Shown: piece after piece, positions 46,913-63,108 of the stretch | How the letters are laid out: the number at the start of each line of letters is the position of its first letter | Position numbering within the stretch: position 1 is the first letter of the stretch | NCBI GenBank assembly: GCA_002433895.1 | Contig: DJJA01000003.1 | Span: forward strand, 511,745-575,744 | Source of the DNA: Candidatus Gottesmanbacteria bacterium UBA6580 | GTDB taxonomy: Bacteria > Patescibacteriota > Microgenomatia > UBA10105 > UBA927 | Reading direction: 5' to 3' | Length of the DNA: 64,000 bases | The notes under the pieces: generated by a model | The model's database searches: none | What the model was told of the DNA's origin: nothing | The model's input: only the letters and a program-made list of their open reading frames with translations | Program-made: the position numbers and the translations under genes

Positions 46913-46961
46913 GTACGTGCAGCACGGAATGAATATATAGTCGTTGTGTTACAATTTATAT

Positions 46962-47921
46962 ATGAATGAATTGCAAAGTAGTGGCAAGCCGGTTTGTGTT
47001 GTCACCGGCGCGGCTGGATTTATTGGTAGTCATGTAGTGGACGCGCTGCTAAAAAAAGGCTACAAAGTTTTTGCGTTGGATAATTTATTGACCGGAAACG
47101 AAAAAAATCTCACTGAAGCTGAAAAAAATCCTGATTTTACATTCATTAATTTCGACGTAACGCGTGAGCTTCCGGTGTTGGGACCCATCAATTATATTTA
47201 TCACCTGGCATCTCCCGCGTCGGTTCCTGATTACCAAAAGTATCCCGAAGAAACTGCGTTGGTAAATACCGTGGGAACTCGTGGACTTTTGAAGGTCGCA
47301 AAAGCGCACAACGCGAAGTTTTTATTCACTTCCACCTCAGAGGTGTATGGAGATCCCAAGGAGCATCCGCAAAAAGAAACGTATTGGGGTAATGTTAATC
47401 CAAATGGCGTGCGGGCTTGTTATGATGAAGCAAAACGGTTTGGGGAAATGATGACGATGCTCTATGTCAGAAATCAAGGAGTAGACGCGCGGATCGCGCG
47501 TATTTTTAACACGTACGGCCCCAGAATGCGGCCAACAGACGGGCGGGTAATTTCTAACTTTATTAATCAGGCGATACAAAGCAAACCGATGACGGTATAT
47601 GGCGATGGGATGCAGACACGGTCTCTTTGTTTTGTGTCCGATATGGTTTCGGGACTTATCGCGCTTATGGAAAGCGAAAAGACAAAAGGTGAAGTGGTCA
47701 ATCTTGGTAATCCTGAAGAATACACGATGGGGGATTTGGCGGCAAAGATAAAAATGATGACGGGTTCTGATTCGGAAATCACGCATACTGATCTGCCTCC
47801 CGATGACCCGACGAAGCGGCGGCCGGACATTACCAAGGCCAAAACGCTGCTCGGATGGGAGCCGCAGGTCCGGGTGGAAACAGGCTTAACGGAAACTATT
47901 GCTTACTACAAGACGTTATAA
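46962..47921 (+). CDS. uxs: UDP-glucuronate decarboxylase (UDP-xylose synthase)
   Basis: Collinear with UXS enzymes as recalled from memory: VVTGAAGFIGSHVVD; IYHLASPASVPDYQKYPEETALVNTVGTRGLL; TSTSEVYGDPKEHPQKETYWGNVNPNGVRACYDEAKRFGE; RIARIFNTYGPRM...DGRVISNFINQA...PMTVYGDGMQTRS. The ORF-track start at 46944 is a TTG. ATG 46962 is preferred. Confidence 0.85.
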   Translation: MNELQSSGKPVCVVTGAAGFIGSHVVDALLKKGYKVFALDNLLTGNEKNLTEAEKNPDFTFINFDVTRELPVLGPINYIYHLASPASVPDYQKYPEETALVNTVGTRGLLKVAKAHNAKFLFTSTSEVYGDPKEHPQKETYWGNVNPNGVRACYDEAKRFGEMMTMLYVRNQGVDARIARIFNTYGPRMRPTDGRVISNFINQAIQSKPMTVYGDGMQTRSLCFVSDMVSGLIALMESEKTKGEVVNLGNPEEYTMGDLAAKIKMMTGSDSEITHTDLPPDDPTKRRPDITKAKTLLGWEPQVRVETGLTETIAYYKTL

Positions 47922-47924
47922 TTT

Positions 47925-48146
47925 ATGAAGCCACAGGATGCCTTTTTTTTCCTTGCCCTGTTGGTGTTATTCATTATCCGGAAGCCGCGGTTATTTCTTG
48001 TTGCAGGACTTAGTTCTCTTGTGCTCTCCATACCGTTATTTGCGTCCTGGGTATTTTTCACCGCTGAACGTCTGACATGGTACGCTGCTGCTTTTTTTGC
48101 CGCGTTTATTATTATTTCACTCCTAAAGCCTGATACGGTACAATAA
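47925..48146 (+). CDS. Small 2-3 TM membrane protein of unknown function
   Basis: 73 aa, MKPQDAFFFLALLVLFIIRK...SWVFFTAERLTWYAAAFFAAFIIISLL. It fits between the UXS and GalE genes with 3-4 nt spacers. Confidence 0.45.
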   Translation: MKPQDAFFFLALLVLFIIRKPRLFLVAGLSSLVLSIPLFASWVFFTAERLTWYAAAFFAAFIIISLLKPDTVQ

Positions 48147-48150
48147 AGTA

Positions 48151-49137
48151 ATGAAGATACTCGTGACCGGCGGGGCTGGCTATATTGGCAGCAACATGAC
48201 ACGGATGCTTGTTACACGCGGGTATGAACCGGTTGTCCTCGATACTCTTGAGTTTGGCCACCGGGAGGCAATACCGAGCAGTGTGCCGCTTATTGTTGGT
48301 TCCGTTGGTGATAAAGCAGTAGTTGAGCAAATTTTTCGGGATTACACCATTTCAGGCGTCCTTCATTTTGCGGGGTATCTCCAAGTGGAAGAATCAGTAA
48401 AATTTCCCATTAAATACATGCAAAACAATGTGATAGCTCCCATTGTTCTTTTGGAGGCGATGAAGGATGCGGGTGTGAAGCGGATTATTTTTTCTTCTAC
48501 AGCGGCAGTGTATGGCAATCCTCAATCTGTGCCTATTCCGGAAAATCACCGTAAAGCGCCAGTGTCACCGTATGGATTGTCAAAATGGATGTTTGAAGAG
48601 TTGCTTCGGGTGTATGACCGGTCATTTGGGATAAAAAGCATAAGCTTGCGTTATTTTAACGCGGCGGGCGCGTCACTCGATGGCGCGCACGGTGAAGTAC
48701 ACGTACCTGAAACACACCTTATTCCGCTTGCATGTTTGGCGGCGTTGGGCTCAGGCAAGGGATTTGGGATATACGGCACCGATTACGAAACTCCCGACGG
48801 CACGGCGCTCCGCGATTTTATCCACATCGAAGATTTAGCAGAAGCACATATTTTGACCCTTGAGGCATTGGGTAACGGACATGCGTCTGACGTCTACAAT
48901 GTCGGTACAGGAGATGGGGTGAGTGTTCAGGAAGTGGTTGACGCGGTAAAAAAAGAATCCGGTTCTGATTTTGAAGCGAAATTAGCGAGTAGACGTCCCG
49001 GAGATCCCGCGATACTGGTATCAGATCCTACCCGGCTTAAGAAAGAATTTGGTTGGGAGCCAAAGCACTCCAACATAAATTCAATTGTCGCGTCTGCGCT
49101 CAAATGGCACCAAAGCCACCCCAAAGGATATACATGA
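48151..49137 (+). CDS. galE: UDP-glucose 4-epimerase
   Basis: Contains MKILVTGGAGYIGSN...SSTAAVYG...YGLSKWMFEELLRVY...SLRYFNAAGA...DGTALRDFIHIEDLAEAH. Confidence 0.8.
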   Translation: MKILVTGGAGYIGSNMTRMLVTRGYEPVVLDTLEFGHREAIPSSVPLIVGSVGDKAVVEQIFRDYTISGVLHFAGYLQVEESVKFPIKYMQNNVIAPIVLLEAMKDAGVKRIIFSSTAAVYGNPQSVPIPENHRKAPVSPYGLSKWMFEELLRVYDRSFGIKSISLRYFNAAGASLDGAHGEVHVPETHLIPLACLAALGSGKGFGIYGTDYETPDGTALRDFIHIEDLAEAHILTLEALGNGHASDVYNVGTGDGVSVQEVVDAVKKESGSDFEAKLASRRPGDPAILVSDPTRLKKEFGWEPKHSNINSIVASALKWHQSHPKGYT

Positions 49138-49721
49138 GGATAGGCATAGATATCAGTCAGATCGCGTATGAGGGAACGGGTGTAGCGCAGTATGTCCGCC
49201 TGATTACCGAGGCACTGATCCGGGCGCATCCCGAGCATGAATATGTATTATTTGGGGCGTCATTACGGAAGAAACAGATATTTTTTGATTATAGTAAAAA
49301 ACTTCCGGGCAATCCCCGTTTAGTAGTGGTGAGCGTGCCCCCAACGATACTTGATTGGATGTGGAACCGGCTTCATATCGTGCCGGTGGAGTGGTTTATC
49401 GGGCCAGTTGATGTGTTTTGGAGTAGTGACTGGACACAGCCGCCGCTTTCCAAAGCCCGCGGGATTACGACCATCCACGACCTTTCTATCCTGCGTTACC
49501 CCGAAGAGTCGCATAATAAAGCAGAATTACATATCGGAAGCGCGGTACTGCGGCCAAATATTGTTGCTACCCAGAAGCGCCGGCTTATGCGTGCGATAGG
49601 CGAATGCCAGGCGTTTTTGTGTGATTCTGAGGCGACCAAAAAAGACGCCCACACACTCCTTCATATTCCGCTTGAAAAGCTTCATGTCGTGTATCCCGGA
49701 TACAAAGGAGTGTCAGTATGA
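49134..49721 (+). CDS. GT4 N-terminal-domain-only protein (truncated paralog or stand-alone partner of the next gene)
   Basis: Opens MRIGIDISQIAYEGTGVAQY and continues through ...GITTIHDLSILRYPEE...LCDSEATKKDAHTLLHIPLEKLHVVYPG. That is the GT4 N-domain plus interdomain linker, with no C-terminal catalytic domain. A complete GT4 gene follows with a 4-nt overlap. Confidence 0.5.
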   Translation: MRIGIDISQIAYEGTGVAQYVRLITEALIRAHPEHEYVLFGASLRKKQIFFDYSKKLPGNPRLVVVSVPPTILDWMWNRLHIVPVEWFIGPVDVFWSSDWTQPPLSKARGITTIHDLSILRYPEESHNKAELHIGSAVLRPNIVATQKRRLMRAIGECQAFLCDSEATKKDAHTLLHIPLEKLHVVYPGYKGVSV

Positions 49722-50845
49722 TTGCCGCGATTGATGGATATGAAGCAAACGCGAGTGTCCGCGTGGGTATCGGGCGTTATGCCTTTGAGATAATCGCGCA
49801 AATTGCCGCCAGGCAAAGTCAGGCAGATAGATTATTTGATGATGTCCGCGTGTATGTACCGGGTAAAGTGGCGGCACACATGCCCAAAGAAACCCAACAT
49901 TTTCATTATCGGGAGATACGCCCCCGGCAATTATGGACATGGGTAGGGTTTCCGCTTGCCCTTGCCCGTGAGAAGCCCACTCCCGATGTGGTATTTTCGC
50001 CGACTCACTATGTGCCCCGGTTTACCCGCATCCCACGGGTGATGGCTATTATGGACGTTTCGTACCTTTCGTATCCCGAGCTTTTTCGTGCGCAGGATTT
50101 ACATAAATTAGTCCATTGGACGGCATATTCAGTGCGTCATGCCGCGAAAATTATTACAATCAGTGTGTTTTCCAAACGTGCTATAATTGACGCATACCAT
50201 GTGCCCTCAGACAGGGTAGTAGTAGCATATCCGGCACTTCCGGACACCGTACTTATTCGCGCTATGGGGAAGAGTGAAAAAACCACTGCGTTACCTGAAA
50301 AATATATCCTGAGTGTCGGGACGCTCCAGCCACGAAAGAACTTTTCCCGCCTCATCGAGGCAATGGCGCATATTAGTGACCCCGACATCGAGCTTCTGAT
50401 CGTCGGAAAAAAAGGGTGGCTCTATGATGAAATACTGGGTGCCCCCAAAAAATTTGGCGTAGAAAATCGGGTGCGTTTCCTTGATTTCGTGCCTGATGAA
50501 GCTCTGCCGTCATTGTATACGCATGCGAAATGTTTTGTGTTGCCAAGTCTTTATGAGGGGTTCGGCTTGCCGGTGTTGGAAGCCATGGCTCATGGCACTC
50601 CTGTGGTTGTAAGTAGTGGCTCCAGTTTGCCTGAAATAGCGGGAGACGCAGGTATTTATGTCGATCCATCTGATGTTTCCAGCATTATAGATGGCATCAA
50701 CCGCGCACTCACTGAGTCCGCGGCTGACCGCAAAGCACGGATACAGCAAGGTTTACAGCGGGTTAAGGAGTTCACATGGGAGGGAGCTGCCGCAAAGGTG
50801 ATGGATGTCCTTGAGGACGTTGGTAAACAAGGGAGGAACGCATGA
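49718..50845 (+). CDS. GT4-family glycosyltransferase
   Basis: Contains EGFGLPVLEAMAHGTPVVVSSGSSLPEIAGDAGIYVDP. Confidence 0.85.
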   Translation: MIAAIDGYEANASVRVGIGRYAFEIIAQIAARQSQADRLFDDVRVYVPGKVAAHMPKETQHFHYREIRPRQLWTWVGFPLALAREKPTPDVVFSPTHYVPRFTRIPRVMAIMDVSYLSYPELFRAQDLHKLVHWTAYSVRHAAKIITISVFSKRAIIDAYHVPSDRVVVAYPALPDTVLIRAMGKSEKTTALPEKYILSVGTLQPRKNFSRLIEAMAHISDPDIELLIVGKKGWLYDEILGAPKKFGVENRVRFLDFVPDEALPSLYTHAKCFVLPSLYEGFGLPVLEAMAHGTPVVVSSGSSLPEIAGDAGIYVDPSDVSSIIDGINRALTESAADRKARIQQGLQRVKEFTWEGAAAKVMDVLEDVGKQGRNA

Positions 50846-51444
50846 GAATAGTTATTGATTTTTGGGTATATCTTGCAACCCTTACAGGGTTTGTCCCCAG
50901 TCATACGGTACGGTTATTTTTATACCGGTGGTTGTTCGGTGTCCGCATCGGCAGGAATACCTCTATTCACTGGCGGGCACAATTTAATAATCCGGCGGGT
51001 GTCACAATCGGACACAACACCATTATCGGCAACGATGCATTTTTAGATGGGCGGTTCAAGCGTGATGGAACAAATAAAAAAGAAGGCAAAATTGCGAGTT
51101 ACCTTAAACAGTTTTTTGGTGGCGGCTCGCGGCCGCTTACCATTGGCAACAATGTTTCCATTGCCGGAGAGGTGCGGATATACACGATGGAGCATGATAT
51201 CGACAGCGCGACATTTGCAGAGATTGGCGCTCCGGTGGTTATTGAAGATTATGTGGTTATCGGCACCCGGGTGACTATCTTACCCGGTGTGACGATTGGC
51301 CGTGGTGCAGTGGTTGCTTCGGGAGCGGTCGTTACCAAAAATGTGGCGCCGTACGCAGTGATGGGAGGTGTACCGGCAGTATTTATTCGTGAGCGGAGTC
51401 ATGATTTGAAATATACATTAAAGTTTGCCAGATTATTTCAATAA
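50842..51444 (+). CDS. Hexapeptide-repeat acetyltransferase (WcaF/maltose O-acetyltransferase-like)
   Basis: Contains IGHNTIIGNDAFLDG...VSIAGEVRIYTMEHD...VVIGTRVTILPGVTIGRGAVVASGAVVTKNVAPYAVMGGVPAVFIRER. Confidence 0.75.
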   Translation: MRIVIDFWVYLATLTGFVPSHTVRLFLYRWLFGVRIGRNTSIHWRAQFNNPAGVTIGHNTIIGNDAFLDGRFKRDGTNKKEGKIASYLKQFFGGGSRPLTIGNNVSIAGEVRIYTMEHDIDSATFAEIGAPVVIEDYVVIGTRVTILPGVTIGRGAVVASGAVVTKNVAPYAVMGGVPAVFIRERSHDLKYTLKFARLFQ

Positions 51445-51462
51445 TGTCCCCAATAATTTTCT

Positions 51463-52335
51463 ATGGCGTTGGATTTATCCATTATTATCGTTAGCTTCAA
51501 TACCAAAAAACTTACGGAAGATTGTCTGACCTCTGTCATGAGGAGCCTCAAAGATGCCAAACTAACCTGGGAGATAATCCTTATCGATAACGTTTCGACA
51601 GACGGTACCCGGGAAATGCTCAAAAAGAAATTCCCCATGGTCCGTACTGTATTAAATGATGAAAATGTCGGATTTGGAAAAGGGAACAATCAGGGTATCC
51701 GGATGAGCAGGGGTGAGTATATATTATTGTTAAACTCAGATACCATTGTCCTCAATAATTCGATAGTGAAGCTTGTTTCTTACGGACGCCAGCACCCGAA
51801 CGCGTTTATTGGCCCCAAGTTGCTTAATCCCGACCGCAGCCCGCAAAGCTCGTGTGGTCCGTTTTTTAGTCTGCCGGTCGTATTTGCGTCGCTGTTTTTG
51901 AAAGGGGATTATATTGGATTAACGCGTTGGTCACCGACACGCGCCCGTAAGGTCGACTGGGTATCTGGAGCCTGTATACTTGCTCCAAAAAAATTGTTTA
52001 TGCAGGATTTGTTATTTGACGAGAATATATTTATGTACATGGAAGAAATCGACCTCCTTATGCGGGCGCGGAAAAAAGGGTATCCAACCTATTTCTATCC
52101 TCGTAGTCTTATCGTACACTTAGGAGCAGCAAGTTCGACAAACAAGCGAAAAGGGCCGGTGTTGAATATTTACCGGGGATTTCTTTATCTGTACCGGAAG
52201 CACGGCTCGCCTGTAGGCTTGTGGCTTGTCCGCGCTATGCTTAAAATAAAAGCAGTGCTTGCCTGGGTGATCGGGGCAGTATTGGGGAAGGAAACACTCA
52301 AAGACACTTATGCAGAAGCTTATAAAATGGTGTAA
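51463..52335 (+). CDS. GT2-family glycosyltransferase
   Basis: Opens LSIIIVSFNTKKLTEDCL...IILIDNVSTDGT and carries LLLNSDT. Confidence 0.8.
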   Translation: MALDLSIIIVSFNTKKLTEDCLTSVMRSLKDAKLTWEIILIDNVSTDGTREMLKKKFPMVRTVLNDENVGFGKGNNQGIRMSRGEYILLLNSDTIVLNNSIVKLVSYGRQHPNAFIGPKLLNPDRSPQSSCGPFFSLPVVFASLFLKGDYIGLTRWSPTRARKVDWVSGACILAPKKLFMQDLLFDENIFMYMEEIDLLMRARKKGYPTYFYPRSLIVHLGAASSTNKRKGPVLNIYRGFLYLYRKHGSPVGLWLVRAMLKIKAVLAWVIGAVLGKETLKDTYAEAYKMV

Positions 52336-55300
52336 AACATGGGGACTTGCGGCAGCATCGCTTTTTCTCCTGGCATTTATTCCGCTTTATCCAAAACTTC
52401 CGCTATTGGATATACGTAATACCTGGGTATACGTGCGCGTAGAAGATTTTCTGGTGCTGTTCGTGCTGTTGGCATGGGGTATAACTCAGATCAAAGACAA
52501 GCTTCTCATTAGATCTCCAATCACCGTCCCCGTATTGTTGTTTTGGCTGGCGGGAGGTGTGGCGACTATTCACAGTATTTTGCTTATTGTTCCTGTGGTG
52601 TGGGACATATTTCCCAATGTCGCGTTTTTGAGCTTTTTACGGCGGATAGAGTACATGAGCTTGTTTTTTGTGGCGTATGCTTCAGTACGCGATAAGCGGA
52701 TTATCCTCCCTATCGCGGTGACTATCATTTTGACTGTGCTTGCGGTGAGCCTGTATGGTGTCGGGCAAAAGTATATGGGGCTGCCTGCGTATTTGACCAT
52801 GAACGAAGAATTTGCCAAGGGCATACCGCTGCAACTTTCCGCGCTTTCCCGGGTATCTTCGACGTTTGGCGGGCATTACGATCTCGCGGCTTTTTTGGTA
52901 CTCACGCTGCCAATTATCGTCAGTATCATGTTTGCGGCAAAGCATATTGTTTTGAAAGCCGTGCTCGCGGGTATATTTGCGCTCGGGTTTTTTGTACTGT
53001 TTATGACGGTTTCGAGAATTTCGGTATTTGCCTTATTTATTTCGGTTGGATTGGTCTTGTTTTTTCAGCGCAGAAAATTAGTGCTTCTTCTGCTTCCGAT
53101 TGGCGTTATCGGTGTATTGGTGCTCCTTGCATTTGCTCCCGGACTCGTTGACCGGTTCGGCAGTACGGTAAAAACCGTTGACGTACTGGTGGATGCCAAA
53201 ACCGGCCATCCGATAGGACACGTGCGCGTGGTGCCCAATACGTATTTCGAACATAAAATCGTACGGCAGTATTTATATGACAGTATCGGAGACGTTACGG
53301 TACTTGCAAGCCCATCGGCGAAATTCATTGTGCCGTATACCTTGCTCGACCCGGAGGTAGTAGTCCTTACCGAACCCACCGCGCCCACAGGCGAGGATTT
53401 ACCCTCGGGCACCGGATATATCAACTTAACACTTTCTCCAGACATAAAGCGTGTCGGAGAATTTTTTTACGAACCGGATGTGCGGGAATCCACAACTTCC
53501 GCGGAAGCGTATATCATCAATGGCCAGTATCTCATTAAGCGGGCCGCAGCGTATGATTTGTCATTTACCACCAGATTTCAGGGGGAGTGGCCGCATGCGA
53601 TTGCGGCGTTTAAGCGGAATATTTTGGTTGGCAGCGGATATGGATCGGTAAGTTTGGCAGTAGACAATAGTTATCTCCGCATGTTGGCAGAAGTCGGATT
53701 ACTGGGGTTTGTATCATTTATATCTATATTTCTTTTGTTTGGGGTTTATCTATACCGGGTGCTCCCCTCAGTCGAAAATCCGCTCACCAGAAGTGTTGCG
53801 TGGGGGCTGGCTGCTGGAGTAGTAGGGCTTGCGATTAACGCGGTATTTATCGATGTATTTGAAGCATCAAAAGTGGCGTTTACCCTATGGTTGTTGATGG
53901 GATTACTATTAGGCGTGTTGGGCGTGACGGCACCGAAAGTAACGGTACATTTCATGGCGGAAATGAAACGAGTTGCCACAAGTTACCCTGCGGTAATCGT
54001 GTACTTACTGGTCGTCACATCATTGTTGTGGCTGCCGCTTACCAGAAATTATTTTATCGGCGATGACTTTACCTGGCTCAGGTGGGCAGCCGACTGTGCC
54101 AACGTTTCCGCGCTGACCGACGGATGCGGGCTTACCTGGTCGTCCGTGACCACATATCTTACGGAAGCGGGGGGGTTTTTCTACCGCCCAGCCACGAAGC
54201 TCTATTTCGCATTAATGTATCAAACGGTGTGGCTTAACCAAACCGTGTATCACGCGGTATCGCTGGCACTTCATTTTCTGGTAAGTGTGTGTGTATTTTT
54301 CCTGGGACTCAGGTTATTTAAGAGCAAAATGCTGGGAGCGGTAAGCGCGTTTGTTTTTGTGTGGCTAAGTGGATTTTCGGAGGCAGTATTCTGGATTGCG
54401 GCAACCGGGCATATGTTTGCCACTCTTCTCATGCTGCTAAGCTTTTTTAGCTACGGCGCGTGGAGAGAAAAGCATAATGGATGGTTTTTCGTGGGTGCTA
54501 TCGCCACGTTTGCATTGTCGCTCGGGTTTCATGAGATGGGTGTGGTGACGCCACTGTTATACCTTCTCTACGAGTTGGCCTTTTCTGATGAGCCAAAATC
54601 ACTTCGGGTGATGGCGCGGAGTATAGCACACTGGTGGTTGTTGTTGCCGTTACCGGTATACGCAATGATGCGGTTATTTGCAGGAAGCCATTGGTTTAGC
54701 GGCGACTACAATTTTAATCTTTTCAAACTTCCGGTAAACGCCGTCGGAAACGCGTTGGGGTATTTCTTGATTGCCTTGACTGGTTCCTACGGGACCGCGA
54801 TATCACAGGGACTGCGGGTAGCACTTCGTGACAATCTGGCGGTAGCAGTACTACTGCTCGTTTTGGGAATAGTGGGAAGTGCGTATGTATACCGTGGTAT
54901 CCGGGACTCCATAAATCTGTGGGAAAAACGGATTATCCGGTTTTCATTACTGTTTTTCGGTATCTGCCTGTTGCCGTTTTTGGGACTTGGAAATATCGCG
55001 CCACGGTATGGGTATACCGCGTCTATCGGTGTTGTGTTGCTTATGGTGTATGGTATGTCAAAGCTGTATGCGGCGCTTCTTGTCAACGGGCGTGACATCG
55101 CCCGTATAGTGATGGCGGTGCTCATCAGTATTTTTGTGTTGTTTCACAGCGTGAGCATGCATCAGCTGCATCAGGACTGGAATCAGGCAGGGGATAAGGT
55201 GAAGCGGTTTATTATTTCTATGGACAGTGTGTATATCGATGAATGGGCAGTGGCTCCCATGGAGATGCATTTTGTAAATATTCCTATCCGTCACGGCAAC

Positions 55301-55501
55301 GCGTGGGTATTTCCTGTGGGAATTTCAGACGCGCTGTGGTTTGTCTACCGGAACCCCAATATAAAAATATATACCTGGTCATCCGCGGAGGAGGCGTTAC
55401 ATGCCGTAACGTACGGTTCGTTAACCCAAAAAGTATTTATATTTAAGAGTGACGGATCGGTGGAGGAAGTGAAAAAAGAGCCGCCGGTAGATATCAAATG
55501 A
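52310..55501 (+). CDS. Giant membrane fusion protein: Wzy_C/O-antigen-ligase-like domain (N-terminal half) plus GT-C-like polytopic domain (C-terminal half)
   Basis: 1063 aa. The N-terminal half has many TM helices and the ligase/polymerase signature GSGYGSVSLAVDNSYLRMLAEVGLLG (compare the H-N-x-x-L-x4-E-x-G-x-x-G motif of WaaL/Wzy). The C-terminal half has more than 10 TM helices with an early loop NYFIGDDFTWLRWA. Confidence 0.55.
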   Translation: MQKLIKWCKTWGLAAASLFLLAFIPLYPKLPLLDIRNTWVYVRVEDFLVLFVLLAWGITQIKDKLLIRSPITVPVLLFWLAGGVATIHSILLIVPVVWDIFPNVAFLSFLRRIEYMSLFFVAYASVRDKRIILPIAVTIILTVLAVSLYGVGQKYMGLPAYLTMNEEFAKGIPLQLSALSRVSSTFGGHYDLAAFLVLTLPIIVSIMFAAKHIVLKAVLAGIFALGFFVLFMTVSRISVFALFISVGLVLFFQRRKLVLLLLPIGVIGVLVLLAFAPGLVDRFGSTVKTVDVLVDAKTGHPIGHVRVVPNTYFEHKIVRQYLYDSIGDVTVLASPSAKFIVPYTLLDPEVVVLTEPTAPTGEDLPSGTGYINLTLSPDIKRVGEFFYEPDVRESTTSAEAYIINGQYLIKRAAAYDLSFTTRFQGEWPHAIAAFKRNILVGSGYGSVSLAVDNSYLRMLAEVGLLGFVSFISIFLLFGVYLYRVLPSVENPLTRSVAWGLAAGVVGLAINAVFIDVFEASKVAFTLWLLMGLLLGVLGVTAPKVTVHFMAEMKRVATSYPAVIVYLLVVTSLLWLPLTRNYFIGDDFTWLRWAADCANVSALTDGCGLTWSSVTTYLTEAGGFFYRPATKLYFALMYQTVWLNQTVYHAVSLALHFLVSVCVFFLGLRLFKSKMLGAVSAFVFVWLSGFSEAVFWIAATGHMFATLLMLLSFFSYGAWREKHNGWFFVGAIATFALSLGFHEMGVVTPLLYLLYELAFSDEPKSLRVMARSIAHWWLLLPLPVYAMMRLFAGSHWFSGDYNFNLFKLPVNAVGNALGYFLIALTGSYGTAISQGLRVALRDNLAVAVLLLVLGIVGSAYVYRGIRDSINLWEKRIIRFSLLFFGICLLPFLGLGNIAPRYGYTASIGVVLLMVYGMSKLYAALLVNGRDIARIVMAVLISIFVLFHSVSMHQLHQDWNQAGDKVKRFIISMDSVYIDEWAVAPMEMHFVNIPIRHGNAWVFPVGISDALWFVYRNPNIKIYTWSSAEEALHAVTYGSLTQKVFIFKSDGSVEEVKKEPPVDIK

Positions 55502-56946
55502 AAAAAATACATGTTTTTTTAATAACACTCATCGTGATGGTCACGGTGGGGTTACGGCTCTACAAGGTGAACGCGCCGATTGCAGACTGGCACAGTTTCC
55601 GGCAGGTAGATACTGCGTCGGTCGCCCGGTTTTTTGTGCAGAACGGTATTGATCTGATGCACCCCCGGTATCACGATCTATCCAATATCCAATCCGGAAA
55701 AGATAACCCGGAAGGGTGGCGCATGGTGGAGCTTCCGGTGTACCAGGGAATTGCCGCGGGTCTTGCCCGTGGCATACCGGCAGTATCACTCGATGTATGG
55801 TTGCGGCTCGTGACTATCATGGCCGCGGCGGGCACGGCATTGCTGCTCATGCTTATCTTATTTCAGGTGAGTTCACCGGCGGTAGCTTTGGTTGCCGGAA
55901 GTATATACGCAATACTTCCATATAGTGTCTTTTTTGGCCGCACCGTTTTACCGGAAACATTCGCGGTATTTTGGGCGGTACTGAGTGTGTATATGGCAGT
56001 TTTGGCGACCAAAGCGCCCCGTGGTTCGTGGTACATCATCGGAGCGGCAGTCGCCGGTGCCGTGGCGTTGTTAGTAAAACCAACGGCTGGATTTTTGTTG
56101 CTTCCCGCGCCGTACCTCATCATCCGGCATTACCGTGTCTCTCCTAAAACAATGCTGTATCTATCCGCATATGTCCTCATAACACTTCTGCCCTTGCTGT
56201 GGTGGAGGAACTGGATTGCCCAATTTCCTGAAGGAATTCCTGTCTACGAGTGGTTGCTCAATAAAGATAATATCCGGTTTAAGGGTGCGTGGTTTCATTG
56301 GCTATTTGCACAGCGTATCGGGGAACTGTTATTAGGATTTTGGGGGCTTATCCCATTTGGTATAGGTTTGCTTTCTCCCGGTGAAAAAAGGGAAGGGTGG
56401 CTTGCCCATGTGTTCGGGTTTGGATCGCTTTTATATTTAGTGGTATTTGCGGCCGGAAACGTACAGCATGATTATTATCAAATACTGTTATTGCCGGCGG
56501 TGAGTATTTACACGGCAAAAGGATTAGTCTGGATATTTTCGGAGAAACGTTTTCCTGTTGTTTCCCGTTTTTCGGTGATCAGCGTTTGCGTGCTGTTTAT
56601 GCTGGCATTTTCGTGGTTCACTATACGGACCTATTATTGGATTAACCGGCCGGAAATTATTGAGGCGGGAACGGCTGCTGACCGGTTGCTCCCGAAAGGC
56701 GCGAAGGTGATCGCGCCGTATAACGGTGATACGACATTTCTTTATCAGACGGGGCGTCAGGGATGGCCGTTGGGGTTTGATATTGATGAAAAAATTACCA
56801 TGGGAGCCACTCATTACGTGACGGTTTCACCGACCGATGCTGATTTTGAAACAATGGAGTTGGCGAAAAAATATACGGTACTTGTGCGAAATGACCGGTA
56901 TGCCATCATTGACTTAACGAAGCCCAATACAGCAGTTGACCGTTAA
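55498..56946 (+). CDS. ArnT/PMT-like GT-C membrane glycosyltransferase
   Basis: 482 aa, multi-TM. First loop ADWHSFRQVDTASVARFF, compare ArnT D-E-x-R-Y-A. Confidence 0.5.
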   Translation: MKKIHVFLITLIVMVTVGLRLYKVNAPIADWHSFRQVDTASVARFFVQNGIDLMHPRYHDLSNIQSGKDNPEGWRMVELPVYQGIAAGLARGIPAVSLDVWLRLVTIMAAAGTALLLMLILFQVSSPAVALVAGSIYAILPYSVFFGRTVLPETFAVFWAVLSVYMAVLATKAPRGSWYIIGAAVAGAVALLVKPTAGFLLLPAPYLIIRHYRVSPKTMLYLSAYVLITLLPLLWWRNWIAQFPEGIPVYEWLLNKDNIRFKGAWFHWLFAQRIGELLLGFWGLIPFGIGLLSPGEKREGWLAHVFGFGSLLYLVVFAAGNVQHDYYQILLLPAVSIYTAKGLVWIFSEKRFPVVSRFSVISVCVLFMLAFSWFTIRTYYWINRPEIIEAGTAADRLLPKGAKVIAPYNGDTTFLYQTGRQGWPLGFDIDEKITMGATHYVTVSPTDADFETMELAKKYTVLVRNDRYAIIDLTKPNTAVDR

Positions 56947-57007
56947 CTTGCGACTATTAACCAGAAAATGTGTGTTTTGGTCAATAGTTAACCGTGAACT
57001 ATGAATT

Positions 57008-58189
57008 ATGAACATTTTATTTGTTTCCGCCATTCTTCCGTACCCGTTGCGTTCCGGGGGTCAAATCCGTATTTATAATCTCCTCAAGCGGTTAAGTAAG
57101 CATCACGCCGTGACGCTCGTTTCTTTTATCCGCGAGGAAGGAGAGCGTGAATTTCTTGGTGACCTTGATTTTTGTGAGCGCGTCGCGGTGGTTATGCGTG
57201 GCCGCGCATGGCAACCCAAATACATTCTCCGGGCAGCGGCAGGGGCGTATCCTTTTCTTCTTGCGACATATCAGCACGAACAGATGCGTCAGGAGATTGC
57301 CCGTCTTATTTCGGAAAAAACGTATGACATTGTCCATATCGAGCCGTTTTATGTCATACCGTCTTTGCCCGCGAAGCATCCGCCACTGGTAGTTTCTGAA
57401 CATAACGTGGAGTATGAGGTTTATGGAGGTTACGCGCGCCGGTTTTCGGGTATGATCCTCCGGCCGCTGTTACACTGGGATGTTGCAAAAATGAAACACT
57501 GGGAGCGGTTGAGCTGGCGTACAGCGAGTGCCGTTACCGCAGTATCGGAAGATGACGCTGCTGTTATCGAAGCGTACGTGCATCATCCGGTCCCGGTTGT
57601 GCCCAATGGCGTCGATATTGAAAGTTTTCCGTTTCGTTTGCCGAAGGCCGCGGAAAGTCCCATGATATTATTTGTCGGAAATTTCCGTTGGCATCCCAAT
57701 CAGGACGCGGCATACACGCTCGTCGGACGTATTTGGCCGCGGCTTCAGGAGAGAATAAAAAACGCCCGGCTTCGTATTGTCGGTAAGGATATTCCGGCGA
57801 AGCTGCGCCGTATGGCGGAAGGTGTTGGTGGACAGGTAGACGAAAATGCCGAAGATATCGCGTCGGTGTACCGTCAAGCTGATGTGCTGGTAGCGCCGCA
57901 CGCGATTTCGGGAGGCACGAAGTTTAAGATGCTGGAAGCGATGGCTACGGGACTTCCAATTGTGACGACAAAGGAGGGAGTGGCTGGGTTAGCTATGGAG
58001 CAGGATATTCATTTTCTGTCGGCTGAAACGCCAGATGAATTTGTTACCGCGATTGCATCCATATGCGAGAGTGATGTTACGCGTCAGACGCTTGCCAAAA
58101 ACGGCAGAAAACTTATCGAATCCAGATATAATTGGGATAGCATCGCCAAAACGCTCGAGGGTGTATGGCAAAAGGCATCACATGAATAA
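57008..58189 (+). CDS. GT4-family glycosyltransferase
   Basis: Opens MNILFVSAILPYPLRSGGQIRIYNLLK and contains KFKMLEAMATGLPIVTT. Confidence 0.8.
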   Translation: MNILFVSAILPYPLRSGGQIRIYNLLKRLSKHHAVTLVSFIREEGEREFLGDLDFCERVAVVMRGRAWQPKYILRAAAGAYPFLLATYQHEQMRQEIARLISEKTYDIVHIEPFYVIPSLPAKHPPLVVSEHNVEYEVYGGYARRFSGMILRPLLHWDVAKMKHWERLSWRTASAVTAVSEDDAAVIEAYVHHPVPVVPNGVDIESFPFRLPKAAESPMILFVGNFRWHPNQDAAYTLVGRIWPRLQERIKNARLRIVGKDIPAKLRRMAEGVGGQVDENAEDIASVYRQADVLVAPHAISGGTKFKMLEAMATGLPIVTTKEGVAGLAMEQDIHFLSAETPDEFVTAIASICESDVTRQTLAKNGRKLIESRYNWDSIAKTLEGVWQKASHE

Positions 58190-59072
58190 ATCAGGCACAA
58201 CTATTGATCTATCGGTTGTTATTTTAAATTTTAATACCCGCGATCTCACCCGTGCGTGTCTGTTGACGGTGCTAAACTCACGGCTCGGTAAATACCGAAT
58301 GGAAGTGATTGTGTGTGATAACGGCTCGACCGACGGAAGCCAGGAAATGATCGAGAATGATTTCCCCGGCGTTAATTTCATCAAAAATGGGAAAAATGTC
58401 GGATTTGCGGCGGGTAATAATCCGGGTATCAGGCGCGCCAAAGGAAGATATGTGTTGCTCCTCAACACCGATACGGAAGTGCCACCGGAAACGTTTTCCG
58501 CCATGATTGCGTTTATGGATGATCATAAAGACGCTGGGGCGGCAACCTGTAAGATATTGCTACCGGGCGGCTCGATGGATGCGGCGTGCCATCGGGGATT
58601 TCCGACGCCATGGGTCGCGTTTACCTATGTGACAAAACTGGAGAAACTGTTTCCGAAAACCAGACTATTCGGAGAATATCACCAGGGGTACAAGGATTTT
58701 TCGAAGGTGCATGAGGTCGACTGCATTGTCGGCGCGTTTTTTATGGTCAGACGCGCGGTTATAGAGGATGTCGGGTTGCTCGATGAAGATTATTTCATGT
58801 ATGGGGAAGATATCGATTGGGCATATAGAATCCGGTCAAAAGGCTGGAAAATTTTATTTAATCCTGAGGTGACCATCCTACATAAAAAGAAGCAAAGCGG
58901 CCGGGCAAACAACCGTAAGGACCGGAGAATTACCACTGAGATATATTTTCATCAGTACAATTGGTTATTTTATACCAAAAATTACGCGAAGAAATATGGC
59001 TTTCTGCTTACTTTTTTGGTGAATAGCTTTTATACATGCCGGATATTTTTGCTCAAGAAATTCGGTATTTGA
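58182..59072 (+). CDS. GT2-family glycosyltransferase
   Basis: Opens LSVVILNFNTRDLTRACLLTVLNS...VIVCDNGSTDGS and carries LLLNTDTEV. Start moved from the ORF-track 58035 to the internal ATG 58182 (MNKSGTTIDLSVV), giving an 8-nt overlap with the upstream stop. Confidence 0.8.
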   Translation: MNKSGTTIDLSVVILNFNTRDLTRACLLTVLNSRLGKYRMEVIVCDNGSTDGSQEMIENDFPGVNFIKNGKNVGFAAGNNPGIRRAKGRYVLLLNTDTEVPPETFSAMIAFMDDHKDAGAATCKILLPGGSMDAACHRGFPTPWVAFTYVTKLEKLFPKTRLFGEYHQGYKDFSKVHEVDCIVGAFFMVRRAVIEDVGLLDEDYFMYGEDIDWAYRIRSKGWKILFNPEVTILHKKKQSGRANNRKDRRITTEIYFHQYNWLFYTKNYAKKYGFLLTFLVNSFYTCRIFLLKKFGI

Positions 59073-59073
59073 T

Positions 59074-62373: not shown

Positions 62374-62378
62374 GGCCG

Positions 62379-63023
62379 GTGCGCGTTATGTATACTTTTT
62401 TAAAACGGCTAATAGACATCGTCGGCAGCATAGTGCTGGGTCTGATATTTCTCCCCATAAGTATTTTGGTCGCAGCGGCGATCACATTAGATAGTCCTGG
62501 TCCCGTGTTTGCTGATACACCACAGCGGGTTGGTAAAAACGGGAAACCCTTTAAACTTTTTAAATTCAGATCAATGATCGTTAATGCCCATATTAAGCTC
62601 CGTACAGATCCTAAGCTCAAGAAGCTCTATCAGGAATACAAAAGGAACAGTTATAAACTTCGGGAAGATCCGAGAGTGACAATGGTGGGGCGGTTTATCC
62701 GTAAACATTCGTTAGACGAAATTCCCCAGTTTTTAAATGTGTTAAAGGGAGATATGAGCCTCGTGGGGCCCCGGCCGTATTACGCGGATGAGTTGGTCGA
62801 GCAACAGCGCAAATATCCGCACACCAAGGAACTCGTAAAGATTGTGTTATCTGCGCGTCCCGGGATAACCGGTTGGTGGCAGGTATCCGGACGGAGTGAA
62901 GTAAATTTTGATAAACGGATAAAACTTGATGCTGACTATGTGCTGAAACGGAGTTTATTTTTGGATATCTATATATTGTTAAAAAGCCCCTGGGCCATGA
63001 TCTCCGGCAGGGGAGCAGTATAG
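62379..63023 (+). CDS. Initiating polyprenyl-phosphate sugar-1-phosphate transferase (small PglC/WbaP-C-type bacterial sugar transferase)
   Basis: N-terminal TM IVGSIVLGLIFLPISILVAAAITL, then PGPVFADTPQRVGKNGKPFKLFKFRSM...DEIPQFLNVLKGDMSLVGPRP. Confidence 0.8.
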   Translation: MRVMYTFLKRLIDIVGSIVLGLIFLPISILVAAAITLDSPGPVFADTPQRVGKNGKPFKLFKFRSMIVNAHIKLRTDPKLKKLYQEYKRNSYKLREDPRVTMVGRFIRKHSLDEIPQFLNVLKGDMSLVGPRPYYADELVEQQRKYPHTKELVKIVLSARPGITGWWQVSGRSEVNFDKRIKLDADYVLKRSLFLDIYILLKSPWAMISGRGAV

Positions 63024-63056
63024 TCATACAGATTATTTGTAGAGTGCCGGGGTTGA

Positions 63057-63084
63057 CCCCGATAGAATCGGGGTTGACTTTTTT
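63057..63084 (+). terminator. Candidate rho-independent terminator after the phosphoglycosyltransferase gene
   Basis: Stem CCCCGAT (63057-63063), loop AGA, stem ATCGGGG (63067-63073), then TTGAC and a T6 run (63079-63084). Confidence 0.35.
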
Positions 63085-63108
63085 ACCCCTACCCCCGACA
63101 ATAATTCC

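What the first reader, a model, noticed from the sequence alone, without database searches (positions are those of the whole stretch)
52310..55501. 1063-aa fusion of an O-antigen ligase/polymerase-like (Wzy_C) domain with a GT-C-like domain
The N-terminal half carries the Wzy/WaaL family signature G-x-G-x-G-S...D-N-S-Y-L-x-x-L-A-E-x-G-L-L-G after a set of TM helices. The C-terminal half is a second polytopic domain whose first loop has a GDDF acidic motif, like the other GT-C candidates here. A ligase/polymerase fused to a lipid-linked-sugar transferase could polymerise or ligate the glycan and add a branch or cap in a single step. It is the only Wzy/WaaL-like element in the window.
Basis: partly seen in the sequence, partly recalled or inferred. 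Interest (0 to 1): 0.6.

Follow-up and report, generated by a model that had tools for sequence, protein, structure and literature searches.

The report
Tandem membrane glycosyltransferase of Microgenomates
This is a real 1063-residue membrane enzyme of an uncultivated Gottesmanbacteria (CPR) genome that joins an O-antigen-ligase/polymerase-like module to a second, unannotated ArnT/PMT/PglB-like glycosyltransferase module; it sits in a sugar-polymer gene cluster kept in hundreds of related species, so it probably finishes a cell-surface glycan shared by this whole lineage.

Summary
The ORF 52310..55501 (+) is real and continuous. The identical protein is seen on 6 public contigs, and full-length relatives occur in at least 584 species-level genomes of Microgenomates.

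The N half (residues 1-540) has the 12-helix WaaL/Wzy_C fold. Its own Pfam Wzy_C score is below threshold, but 36 of 46 family members hit Wzy_C and split orthologs pass the cut-off. Arg236 aligns with E. coli WaaL Arg215. The ligase catalytic His is replaced by an invariant Asp452, as in SEDS and inverting Wzy-type polymerases.

The C half (residues 541-1063) has no Pfam hit. Its model is confident (pLDDT 92) and matches only GT-C(A) enzymes (STT3, PglB, ArnT, Pmt4, DPY19). It has an invariant Asp585-Asp586 in its first outer loop.

The gene always lies in the order GT4-GT4-acetyltransferase-GT2-[this gene]-PMT_2-GT4-GT2-GT4-GT4-ManC-phosphoglycosyltransferase-DUF4012. Some relatives encode the two halves as adjacent genes in the same slot. 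Others have only the Wzy_C gene there.

Most likely it is a bifunctional outer-face enzyme: en-bloc transfer of the undecaprenyl-PP-linked glycan, plus addition of one sugar from a polyprenyl-phosphate donor. A true LPS ligase is unlikely because this lineage has no outer membrane. No paper describing the fusion was found. I rate it a new variant of a known kind, of moderate interest.

The parts
52310..55501 (+). Whole gene: 1063-aa bimodular polytopic membrane glycosyltransferase (stop codon included)
   Evidence: ORF. Identical protein on 6 public contigs. 1379 homologs, the top 120 nearly all near full length. At least 584 species genomes carry it.
52310..53929 (+). N module, residues 1-540: 12-TM WaaL/Wzy_C-fold (GT-C(B)-type) domain
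   Evidence: AF2 model. WaaL 7tpg_B hit only when the N half is in the query (vs 41). Wzy_C in 36 of 46 members. Split orthologs reach Pfam's gathering score.
53006..53017 (+). T-V-S-R motif, residues 233-236. Arg236 is the candidate first pyrophosphate-binding Arg.
   Evidence: At least 98% conserved in 191 sequences. Aligns with E. coli WaaL Arg215 in hhalign and in a local alignment.
53168..53554 (+). Beta-rich insert, residues 287-415, inside the large outer loop between TM9 and TM10. Length varies among relatives. Possible glycan- or acceptor-binding module.
   Evidence: Strands in the AF2 model. N-half HMM positions around 305-390 are missing in many relatives. No fold search was possible on the insert alone.
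53567..53593 (+). T-T-R-F-Q-G-E-W-P, residues 420-428. Arg422 is the candidate second pyrophosphate-binding Arg.
   Evidence: T420, T421, R422, Q424, G425, W427 and P428 are at least 98% conserved. The motif lies inside the Pfam Wzy_C match 407-471. Equivalence to EcWaaL Arg288 is inferred, not aligned.
53630..53707 (+). G-S-G-Y-G-S...V-D-N-S-Y-L-R-M-L-A-E-V-G-L-L-G, residues 441-466. Asp452 occupies the position of the ligase catalytic His.
   Evidence: Ungapped register anchored on GLLG/GLMG puts D452-N453 opposite EcWaaL H338-N339. D452 is at least 98% conserved in 191 sequences and is present in the split orthologs.
53849..53872 (+). I-D-V-F-E-A-S-K, residues 514-521: conserved short outer loop between TM11 and TM12
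   Evidence: All eight residues are at least 98% conserved. It was one of the two peptide patterns used in the genome scan.
53924..53983 (+). Cytoplasmic linker, residues 539-558, between the modules. This is where split orthologs have the gene boundary.
   Evidence: Low pLDDT at 543-548. Alignment of the L089/L090 split genes at this point.
53930..55498 (+). C module, residues 541-1063: GT-C(A)-fold glycosyltransferase domain with no Pfam model
   Evidence: AF2 pLDDT 92, pTM 0.92. Foldseek hits STT3, PglB, ArnT, Pmt4, DPY19, AglB, Emb and ALG6 at prob about 1.0. hhalign 99.5% to the stand-alone paralog family.
54059..54070 (+). G-D-D-F, residues 584-587, in the first outer loop of the C module: candidate catalytic acidic pair
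   Evidence: D585 and D586 are at least 98% conserved in 191 sequences. D585 is also kept in the stand-alone paralog.
55232..55498 (+). Small C-terminal alpha/beta domain, residues 975-1063, predicted extracytoplasmic
   Evidence: AF2 secondary structure. Conserved P992, W999, P1002 and G1004.
51463..52335 (+). Upstream GT2 gene, overlapping by 26 nt. It precedes the gene in most related loci and is missing in a few.
   Evidence: Pfam. Synteny.
55498..56946 (+). Downstream PMT_2-type GT-C gene, 4-nt overlap. It follows the gene in nearly all loci long enough to show the downstream neighbour.
   Evidence: Pfam PMT_2, 34.3 bits. Synteny.
46944..64000 (+). Conserved glycan-assembly block: 2 epimerase/dehydratases, GT4N, GT4, hexapeptide acyltransferase, GT2, this gene, PMT_2, GT4, GT2, GT4, GT4, ManC, Bac_transf phosphoglycosyltransferase, DUF4012 (partial at the window end)
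   Evidence: Pfam. The same order is seen in about 80 loci from Gottesman-, Levy-, Roizman- and Woesebacteria.
42244..43914 (+). Stand-alone paralog of the C module (556 aa, no Pfam hit)
   Evidence: HMM E = 4e-14. hhalign prob 99.5, E = 4e-23 over 403 columns.

Best explanation
The gene encodes a natural two-module integral-membrane glycosyltransferase. Both predicted active sites face the outside of the cytoplasmic membrane.

Shown here:
- Module 1 (residues 1-540) has the 12-helix WaaL/Wzy_C fold. Its invariant polar residues, including Arg236, Arg422 and Asp452, lie in outer loops.
- Module 2 (residues 541-1063) has the ArnT/PMT/PglB-type GT-C(A) fold, with an invariant Asp585-Asp586 in its first outer loop.
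- The helix count places a cytoplasmic linker between the modules.
- The gene sits inside a class-wide conserved operon that encodes a phosphoglycosyltransferase, six or seven cytoplasmic GT4/GT2 enzymes, an acyltransferase, sugar-nucleotide enzymes and another GT-C.

Inferred mechanism:
1. The operon builds an oligosaccharide on undecaprenyl pyrophosphate, and the oligosaccharide is flipped outward.
2. Module 1 binds the pyrophosphate with its two Arg residues and uses Asp452 as the base. It transfers the glycan en bloc with inversion. Most likely it acts as a Wzy-type polymerase that joins repeat units.
3. Module 2 takes a single sugar from a polyprenyl-phosphate sugar and adds it to the same glycan as a branch or cap. 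The fusion couples the two outer-face steps.

The architecture, fold assignment and operon membership are near certain (about 0.9). The 'polymerase plus decorating GT-C' mechanism is my best single reading at about 0.4. The confidence given is for the general statement: a bifunctional outer-face enzyme with en-bloc transfer plus single-sugar addition on a non-LPS surface glycan.
For: The fusion is real. The ORF is continuous. The identical protein is on 6 contigs from 4 sources. The top 120 homologs are nearly all near full length, at 50-99% identity. At least 584 species genomes carry it.

Both halves are under selection. 142 positions are at least 98% conserved across 191 sequences at 43-99% identity, spread over both halves.

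N-half fold and family:
- WaaL 7tpg_B matches with TMt 0.60 and prob 1.0, only when the N half is in the query.
- 36 of 46 members hit Wzy_C, and split orthologs score 33.1 and 32.3 bits against a gathering score of 31.7.
- R236 aligns with EcWaaL R215, and D452 with EcWaaL H338.
- PMC10920833 states that SEDS and the inverting polymerase families of clan GT-C1 carry Asp or Glu where O-antigen ligases carry His, plus one or two Arg that bind the diphosphate.

C half:
- The model has pLDDT 92 and pTM 0.92.
- The top PDB hits (ranks 1-17) are all GT-C(A) enzymes at prob 1.0 and TMq 0.42-0.48, with further GT-C(A) enzymes lower in the list.
- DD is invariant.
- Homology to a stand-alone family is robust (prob 99.5). 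That family links weakly to PMT_2 (prob 68).

Functional coupling:
- In L089, L090 and a JGI contig the two halves are adjacent separate genes in the same operon slot.
- In L094 and L095 the slot holds only a Wzy_C gene.
- In a crude NJ tree, all fused and split forms make one clade, separate from the lone Wzy_C proteins.

Operon: synteny in about 80 loci, with Bac_transf, ManC and DUF4012.

Possible donor and flippase supply in the window: an ArnC-like GT2 at 21034..21729 (E = 1.9e-16 to E. coli ArnC) and a Wzx-like gene at 21702..22988.

Precedents: the bifunctional ligase WadA (PMC9938171), and outer-face GT-C decoration from polyprenyl-phosphate donors (PMC11127046).
Against: - No biochemical data exist, and donor, acceptor and product are unknown.
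- This sequence's own Wzy_C score is below Pfam's cut-off.
- Foldseek E-values are modest: 3.7e-4 at best for the C half and 0.28 for WaaL.
- Polymerase cannot be separated from ligase by sequence.
- The protein is unusually conserved for a Wzy (43-60% identity across candidate phyla).
- No Wzz-type co-polymerase turned up among the ORFs of 150 aa or more that I scanned. No flippase lies inside the conserved block.
- Seven or eight transferases is large for a repeat unit.
- No DPM1/GtrB-like polyprenyl-phosphate sugar synthase is part of the conserved block. The ArnC-like gene is 30 kb away.
- The equivalence of Arg422 to the second WaaL Arg rests on motif position only.
- The relative orientation of the two modules could not be inspected, because no PAE or coordinates were available.
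Confidence: 0.6

Rival explanations
1. Priming-plus-ligation logic, as in WadA. The GT-C(A) module first puts a single primer sugar from a polyprenyl-phosphate donor on a non-LPS acceptor, such as a membrane lipid or wall polymer. The Wzy_C module then ligates the finished Und-PP-linked glycan onto that sugar once. There is no polymerisation.
For: - WadA shows that a ligase can be fused to the enzyme that makes its acceptor sugar (PMC9938171; PMC10920833).
- The high sequence conservation and the fixed set of transferases across the class fit a defined glycan better than a variable repeat polymer.
- No Wzz-like gene was found.
Against: - The His typical of ligases is Asp here.
- Genomes with a lone Wzy_C in the same operon show that the C module is dispensable for the core pathway. 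That is harder to fit with an obligatory primer step.
- The acceptor is unknown.
Confidence: 0.2
2. Protein glycosylation machine. The N module is a PglL/PilO/WsaB-like O-oligosaccharyltransferase that moves the Und-PP-glycan onto pilins or S-layer or surface proteins. The C module is a PMT-like protein O-glycosyltransferase or extends the protein-linked glycan.
For: - From my own knowledge, the Wzy_C family includes O-oligosaccharyltransferases.
- CPR bacteria rely on type IV pili and have a Gram-positive-like envelope (PMC6744442).
- The C half matches Pmt4, Pmt1-Pmt2 and the oligosaccharyltransferases among others.
- A conserved glycan across a class is typical of general protein glycosylation systems.
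Against: - There is no WWDYG motif. The C-terminal domain is only about 90 residues, so the C half is not an STT3/PglB-type enzyme.
- There is no Pfam PMT or PMT_2 hit and no MIR domain.
- No pilin or S-layer gene was seen in the conserved block.
- The catalytic His that I recall for PglL is absent here.
Confidence: 0.2
3. The C module is not catalytic. It is a GT-C-derived scaffold that holds the acceptor or growing chain, for example as a chain-length or export adaptor for the Wzy_C module.
For: - No Pfam model recognises it.
- The Wzy_C protein works without it in some lineages.
Against: - The acidic pair in the first outer loop is invariant, as are Arg, His and Glu residues across 191 sequences: D585, D586, R626, H648, H655, E691, E742, R788, D799, R899.
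- D585, H655, E742, R788 and R899 are shared with the stand-alone paralog.
- Stand-alone relatives occur in other glycan clusters.
Confidence: 0.07
4. A genuine WaaL O-antigen ligase that joins O-antigen to lipid A-core, as the public annotation 'O-antigen ligase family protein' implies.
For: - The public name.
- The WaaL fold match.
Against: - The lineage is reported to lack a Gram-negative envelope (PMC6744442).
- The catalytic His is replaced by Asp.
- No LPS core genes were seen in the window.
Confidence: 0.02
5. An artificial fusion of two adjacent genes, caused by a sequencing or assembly frameshift.
For: - Split versions exist in some metagenome contigs, with A-rich junctions.
Against: - The identical ORF is found in 6 independent contigs.
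- A full-length fusion is found in at least 584 species genomes.
- The linker is alignable between fused sequences.
- The occasional broken copies (L054, L076) break inside the N half, not at the boundary.
Confidence: 0.01

Closest known systems
WaaL O-antigen ligase (Pfam Wzy_C PF04932; CAZy GT121; PDB 7TPG)
   Same: - 12 TM helices with the large catalytic outer loop between TM9 and TM10.
- Fold match.
- The first Arg is conserved (R236 opposite EcWaaL R215).
- The G-x-G-x-G ... x-N-x-x-L ... G-L-x-G motif is in the same register.
   Different: - The catalytic His is Asp.
- The loop carries a beta-rich insert of about 130 residues.
- A second GT-C domain is fused.
- The host lineage has no LPS.
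- This sequence scores below Pfam's threshold.
Inverting Wzy-type polymerases and SEDS proteins (CAZy clan GT-C1 of PMC10920833)
   Same: - Same fold class.
- One or two conserved Arg, plus an Asp or Glu at the position of the ligase His.
- It sits in a cluster with a phosphoglycosyltransferase and many GTs, like Wzx/Wzy-dependent loci.
   Different: - It is far more conserved across lineages than Wzy enzymes usually are.
- No Wzz partner was seen.
- Assignment to a particular CAZy family was not tested.
WadA of Brucella (GT25 + GT121 bifunctional O-antigen ligase, PMC9938171)
   Same: A Wzy_C/ligase-type module fused to a second glycosyltransferase that acts on the same glycoconjugate.
   Different: - WadA's partner is a soluble cytoplasmic GT-A-type domain that uses a nucleotide sugar on the other side of the membrane.
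- Here the partner is a polytopic GT-C(A) whose active site is predicted on the same (outer) face.
- The domain order is also reversed.
GT-C(A) enzymes ArnT, PMT/PMT_2, PglB/STT3, DPY19, GtrII/GT136-type decorating enzymes
   Same: - Fold.
- Acidic motif in the first outer loop.
- A small outer C-terminal domain.
- Neighbourhood rich in PMT_2 genes.
- Concept of outer-face addition from polyprenyl-phosphate sugars (PMC11127046).
   Different: - No Pfam or NCBIfam model matches.
- hhalign to the neighbouring PMT_2 family reaches only 14% probability.
- No WWDYG motif.
- Fused to a Wzy_C module.

Membership tests
Pfam Wzy_C (PF04932) / O-antigen ligase family | Sequence scores at or above the Pfam gathering threshold (31.7 bits) | tested here: not met
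   The window protein scores 15.2 bits, or 16.5 bits with the N half alone. However, 36 of 46 family members hit at E<1. The split orthologs L090_N and L089_N score 33.1 and 32.3 bits. The long loop insert breaks the match in the fused form.
Pfam Wzy_C (PF04932) / O-antigen ligase family | 12-TM topology with a large extracytoplasmic loop between TM9 and TM10, and a WaaL-like fold | tested here: met
   AF2 model helices. Foldseek WaaL 7tpg_B at prob 1.0, TMt 0.60, E = 0.28. The hit disappears when only the C half is searched.
O-antigen ligase sensu stricto (WaaL, CAZy GT121) | Catalytic His (EcWaaL H338 / CmWaaL H313) in the H-N-x-x-L motif | tested here: not met
   Asp452 is in that position by ungapped motif alignment. 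It is at least 98% conserved in 191 sequences.
O-antigen ligase sensu stricto (WaaL, CAZy GT121) | Two Arg that bind the Und-PP pyrophosphate (EcWaaL R215, R288) | tested here: inconclusive
   R236 aligns with R215. R422 is proposed for the second Arg from motif position only. R282 is another conserved candidate.
O-antigen ligase sensu stricto (WaaL, CAZy GT121) | Acceptor is lipid A-core of LPS | not testable with these tools
   Only 64 kb is available. CPR bacteria are reported to lack a Gram-negative envelope (PMC6744442). No LPS genes are in the window.
Inverting Wzy-type polymerases (clan GT-C1, PMC10920833) | Conserved Arg residue(s), plus Asp or Glu at the ligase-His position | tested here: met
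   R236, R422 and D452 are at least 98% conserved.
Inverting Wzy-type polymerases (clan GT-C1, PMC10920833) | Genetic context of a Wzx/Wzy pathway: initiating phosphoglycosyltransferase, flippase, co-polymerase | tested here: inconclusive
   The Bac_transf gene is in the conserved block. A Wzx-like gene is in the window but 30 kb away. No Wzz hit appeared in any scanned ORF.
GT-C(A) glycosyltransferases (ArnT / PMT / PglB-STT3 / DPY19 class) | GT-C(A) fold | tested here: met
   C-half model at pLDDT 92. PDB hit ranks 1-17 are all GT-C(A) enzymes at prob 1.0 and TMq 0.42-0.48, best E = 3.7e-4.
GT-C(A) glycosyltransferases (ArnT / PMT / PglB-STT3 / DPY19 class) | Conserved acidic residue(s) in the first extracytoplasmic loop | tested here: met
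   D585-D586 follow the first TM helix of the module. They are at least 98% conserved in 191 sequences.
Pfam PMT_2 (PF13231) / PMT (PF02366) | HMM score above the gathering threshold | tested here: not met
   No hit for the C half. 1 of 46 members hits at E = 0.011. hhalign to the neighbouring PMT_2 family gives prob 14%.
Oligosaccharyltransferases PglB/STT3/AglB | WWDYG motif in a large C-terminal outer domain | tested here: not met
   There is no WWD in the sequence, and the C-terminal domain is only about 90 residues.
WadA-type bifunctional ligases | A GT25 cytoplasmic domain fused to the ligase domain | tested here: not met
   No GT25 or other soluble GT domain was found. The partner is a polytopic GT-C.

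The most novel reading that the evidence does not exclude
This may be the first described tandem GT-C enzyme: a GT-C(B) Wzy/WaaL-type module and a GT-C(A) ArnT/PMT-type module in one chain. On this reading it carries out two consecutive lipid-linked glycosyl transfers on the outer face of the membrane, one from Und-PP-oligosaccharide and one from polyprenyl-P-monosaccharide, with hand-over between the sites. It would then be the terminal enzyme of a surface-glycan pathway that is conserved, gene for gene, across the Microgenomates, pointing to a still unknown envelope polymer or general glycosylation system in these uncultivated bacteria.
Probability: 0.4. Interest if true: 0.7.

Novelty: new variant of a known kind. 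Interest (0 to 1): 0.55.

Why it matters
Candidate-phyla-radiation bacteria are mostly uncultivated, and their envelope chemistry is essentially unknown. This gene marks a 12-to-15-gene glycan pathway that keeps its gene order across Gottesman-, Levy-, Roizman-, Woese- and Shapirobacteria. That suggests a lineage-wide surface glycan that could be searched for directly.

For enzymology, a natural fusion of the two structural classes of GT-C enzymes would be useful in several ways:
- Split-gene and Wzy_C-only variants occur in related genomes, so the fusion is a ready-made case for studying how Und-PP-oligosaccharide polymerases or ligases cooperate with polyprenyl-phosphate-sugar transferases.
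- It extends the 'bifunctional ligase' idea from WadA to two membrane-embedded modules on the same face.
- It exposes a GT-C(A) family that no Pfam or NCBIfam model covers. A single-sequence search found 2590 cluster representatives at E up to 1e-3 and 84 at E up to 1e-30.

Tried and rejected
- A profile of the whole family against PDB sequences gave nothing relevant.
- NCBIfam gave no hit.
- hhalign of the half-profiles against the single sequences of E. coli WaaL and ArnT was not significant (prob <1%). The WaaL alignment did put R236 on R215.
- Apparent 'stand-alone' C-half proteins of 534-541 aa (P0168, P0169, P0172) turned out to be fused genes cut by contig ends. I did not count them as splits.
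- The double ORFs in L054 and L076 are breaks inside the N half, probably assembly errors, not domain splits.
- Literature searches found no description of this protein. The queries were Gottesmanbacteria, Patescibacteria or CPR combined with O-antigen ligase or GT-C, and Wzy_C combined with PMT_2. The one hit was unrelated.
- I considered an STT3/PglB-type oligosaccharyltransferase for the C half because these were the top fold hits. I rejected it for lack of the WWDYG domain.

Full report
**1. Observation**

The ORF 52310..55501 (+) is present exactly as described: ATG start, 1063 codons. It overlaps the upstream GT2 gene by 26 nt and the downstream PMT_2 gene by 4 nt, which is the usual pattern of a tight operon.

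The quoted motifs are at residues 441-466 (GSGYGS...VDNSYLRMLAEVGLLG) and 584-587 (GDDF).

The exact protein sequence is recorded on six contigs from NCBI, JGI, ENA and Logan, the longest 1.13 Mb. A near-identical cluster member (at least 90% identical) is named 'O-antigen ligase family protein [Patescibacteria group bacterium]'.

A word-indexed search found 1379 homologs. The best 120 are nearly all near full length (945-1096 aa) at 50-99% identity, and where named they come from Candidatus Gottesmanbacteria or Patescibacteria. Titles include Gottesman-, Levy-, Roizman- and Woesebacteria. A frameshift artefact is therefore excluded.

**2. The N half**

Pfam gives only a sub-threshold Wzy_C hit for this sequence: E = 0.019, 15.2 bits against a cut-off of 31.7, residues 407-471 on profile positions 64-149. 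With the N half alone the hit is E = 0.0074. Scanned one by one, 36 of 46 family members hit Wzy_C, best E = 1.1e-6, and no other family recurs.

The AlphaFold model of the whole protein has pLDDT 78 and pTM 0.72. It shows 12 helices, with a large loop between helix 9 (255-275) and helix 10 (455-487) that contains a beta-rich insert at about 287-415.

Foldseek against the PDB returns WaaL (7tpg_B) at probability 1.0 and TM-score 0.60 on the target. WaaL is absent when the C half alone is the query, so that match belongs to the N half.

Against E. coli K-12 WaaL, fetched from NC_000913.3, two correspondences emerge:
- The T-V-S-R236 motif aligns with T-Q-T-R215.
- The ungapped register anchored on GLLG/GLMG puts D452-N453 opposite H338-N339.

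The CAZy paper on diphospholipid-using GTs (PMC10920833) states the relevant rule. O-antigen ligases use two Arg to hold the pyrophosphate and a His to activate the acceptor. SEDS proteins and the inverting Wzy-type polymerase families of the same clan carry Asp or Glu at the His position.

R236, R282, R422 and D452 are each at least 98% conserved in 191 distinct full-length homologs at 43-99% identity.

So the N half is a divergent member of the WaaL/Wzy_C fold class. Its catalytic signature looks more like a polymerase or SEDS protein than a classical ligase.

**3. The C half**

No Pfam or NCBIfam model matches, and a family profile finds nothing relevant among PDB sequences.

Modelled alone with the family alignment, it gives pLDDT 92 and pTM 0.92. 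The 17 best Foldseek PDB hits are all GT-C(A) enzymes at probability 1.0, with TM-scores of 0.42-0.48 on the query and best E = 3.7e-4: STT3, PglB, ArnT, AglB, Pmt4 and DPY19. Further GT-C(A) enzymes (PIG-U, EmbA/B, Pmt1-Pmt2, ALG6) rank lower with weaker scores.

The first helix (559-579) is followed by an outer loop that starts with the conserved D585-D586. Further conserved charged residues are R626, H648, H655, E691, E742, R788, D799, R836 and R899. There is no WWDYG motif, and the C-terminal soluble domain has only about 90 residues. The module is therefore not an STT3/PglB-type oligosaccharyltransferase.

The window holds a stand-alone paralog at 42244..43914 (HMM E = 4e-14; hhalign probability 99.5%, E = 4e-23). 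It keeps D585, H655, E742, R788 and R899. That paralog family links weakly to the neighbouring PMT_2 family (probability 68%). The C half itself does so only at 14%.

A search of 1.84 billion cluster representatives with the C half found 2590 proteins at E up to 1e-3 and 84 at E up to 1e-30. These are a mix of about 1000-aa fused forms and 450-520-aa stand-alone forms.

**4. Topology**

Twelve helices in the N half put its C terminus in the cytoplasm. The Lys/Arg-containing linker (539-558) is followed by the first helix of the C half, so the DD loop is outside.

All the invariant polar residues of the N half fall in predicted outer loops: R43, D46, E166, K170, R181, D191, R236, R282, E362, D416, R422, D452, D515, E518 and K521. 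This is read. Both active sites are therefore predicted on the outer face.

**5. Context**

The window is a 64-kb run of glycan genes with many GT-C enzymes of the PMT_2, YfhO, GT87 and PTPS_related types.

The gene lies in a block with this order: Epi1, a 73-aa membrane ORF, Epi2, GT4N, GT4, hexapeptide acyltransferase, GT2, this gene, PMT_2, GT4, GT2, GT4, GT4, ManC, Bac_transf phosphoglycosyltransferase, DUF4012. The same order recurs in about 80 fetched loci at 43-87% identity of the fused protein.

DUF4012 has been noted in Gram-positive capsule and exopolysaccharide clusters and as enriched in CPR. [quoted passage not shown] An LPS acceptor is therefore not expected.

A Wzx-like flippase (21702..22988) and an ArnC-like polyprenyl-phosphate GT2 (21034..21729, E = 1.9e-16 to E. 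coli ArnC) are in the window but outside the conserved block.

**6. Natural variants**

- In L090 and L089 the same slot holds two genes: a 507/528-aa Wzy_C protein, which passes Pfam's cut-off at 33.1 and 32.3 bits, and a 498/516-aa C-half-like protein. They overlap by 20 and 11 nt.
- A JGI contig has them as 540-aa and 480-aa genes, 61 nt apart.
- Both split proteins keep the key residues. The junctions are A-rich, so a sequencing frameshift cannot be fully excluded for the two overlapping cases. It can be excluded for the 61-nt-gap case.
- In L094 (Shapirobacteria-like) and L095 the slot holds only a 486-500-aa Wzy_C gene, followed directly by PMT_2 or GT4.
- L092 has the fused gene plus an extra stand-alone C-half-like gene.
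- L091 has a stand-alone relative in an ABC-transporter cluster.
- A crude midpoint-rooted NJ tree of N halves separates 62 lone Wzy_C proteins from a clade holding all 89 fused and the split forms. The split forms nest among fused ones.

I read this as follows. The Wzy_C enzyme is a core step of the pathway. The C-half GT-C is an accessory module that became associated with it once, and it is usually fused.

**7. Mechanism**

Shown: two folds, conserved catalytic-type residues, outer-face topology, operon membership, and fused, split and absent variants.

Inferred:
- The operon builds an Und-PP-linked oligosaccharide, which is then flipped.
- The N module transfers it en bloc with inversion, using R236 and R422 on the pyrophosphate and D452 as the base.
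- The C module adds a sugar from a polyprenyl-phosphate donor, as GT-C(A) decorating enzymes do (PMC11127046).

I favour a Wzy-like polymerase plus a decorating GT-C at about 0.4, for three reasons: Asp stands in place of His, the cluster has a Wzx/Wzy-like make-up, and the C module is dispensable in some lineages.

The main rivals are about 0.2 each:
- A WadA-like 'prime then ligate' logic (PMC9938171).
- A protein O-glycosylation machine aimed at pilins or surface proteins.

Points against the polymerase reading:
- The protein is unusually conserved for a Wzy.
- No Wzz was found.
- No flippase lies in the conserved block.
- The number of transferases is large for a repeat unit.

**8. Comparison and novelty**

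The protein is already in public databases, named 'O-antigen ligase family protein' or hypothetical. Its C half is unannotated.

I found no paper on it or on any Wzy_C-GT-C(A) fusion. In the one fused bifunctional O-antigen ligase these searches turned up, WadA, the ligase is joined to a cytoplasmic GT25 domain.

I therefore rate it a new variant of a known kind. Both modules belong to known fold classes and the chemistry is expected. The new elements are the tandem arrangement, the His-to-Asp change, the loop insert, the uncovered GT-C(A) family and the class-wide operon.

Interest is moderate at 0.55. The finding is not a new principle, but it is a concrete handle on the unknown envelope glycan of Microgenomates.

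Noticed in passing
window 46944-64000; loci L001-L086: A block of about 15 genes keeps the same order in about 80 loci from several Microgenomates candidate phyla. The order is epimerases, GT4s, acyltransferase, GT2, fused gene, PMT_2, GT4, GT2, GT4, GT4, ManC, Bac_transf, DUF4012. This suggests one conserved surface glycan for the whole group.
   Followed up: partly
L094 7001-8503; L095 7001-8461: In Shapirobacteria-like genomes the same operon slot holds a lone 486-500-aa Wzy_C gene with no C-half partner. These clusters instead carry extra PMT_2 genes upstream.
   Followed up: partly
window 36003-46000: GC drops to 0.40-0.44, against 0.45-0.49 elsewhere. The stretch holds an 18-TM 740-aa ORF with no Pfam hit, a 1336-aa ORF with about 21 TM helices and a C-terminal GDSL lipase/acylhydrolase domain, and the stand-alone paralog of the C module (42244..43914). 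It may be an acquired island.
   Followed up: no
window 47925-48146: A 73-aa hydrophobic ORF lies between the two epimerase genes. A 73-aa gene is called at the same place in L001 and L003. Its function is unknown.
   Followed up: no
window 21034-22988: An ArnC-like GT2 without TM helices (E = 1.9e-16 to E. coli ArnC) overlaps the start of a Wzx-like Polysacc_synt_3 gene. These could supply polyprenyl-phosphate sugar and flippase activity to the many GT-C enzymes of the window.
   Followed up: partly
window 49053-49721: A 222-aa ORF (TTG start) holds only the N-terminal half of a GT4 fold (Glyco_transf_4). It is conserved as a separate gene of about 180-190 aa upstream of the full GT4 in nearly all loci long enough to show it, so it may be one part of a two-part GT4.
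   Followed up: no
L009, L011, L012 and many others; L073; P0339, P0404: Many public records that carry this Microgenomates operon are titled 'uncultured Gammaproteobacteria bacterium', 'Pacearchaeota archaeon' or 'Bathyarchaeia archaeon'. The taxonomy labels of these MAGs look wrong, or the contigs are mis-binned.
   Followed up: no
L092 2984-8512: One genome has the gene order hexapeptide acyltransferase, fused gene, GT2, then an extra stand-alone C-half-like gene, then PMT_2. This is a local rearrangement or duplication of the module.
   Followed up: no
L054 5980-9128; L076 2967-6103: In two loci the fused gene is broken inside the N half, near residues 210 and 120. These are probably assembly errors or pseudogenes.
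   Followed up: partly
window 12789-14348, 17192-18427, 18424-19962: Three polytopic ORFs (8-12 predicted TM helices) have no Pfam hit. ORF 18424 starts with an H-D-G-E-Y-H motif like the YfhO-type ORF 14294, so further unannotated GT-C-like enzymes are likely here.
   Followed up: no
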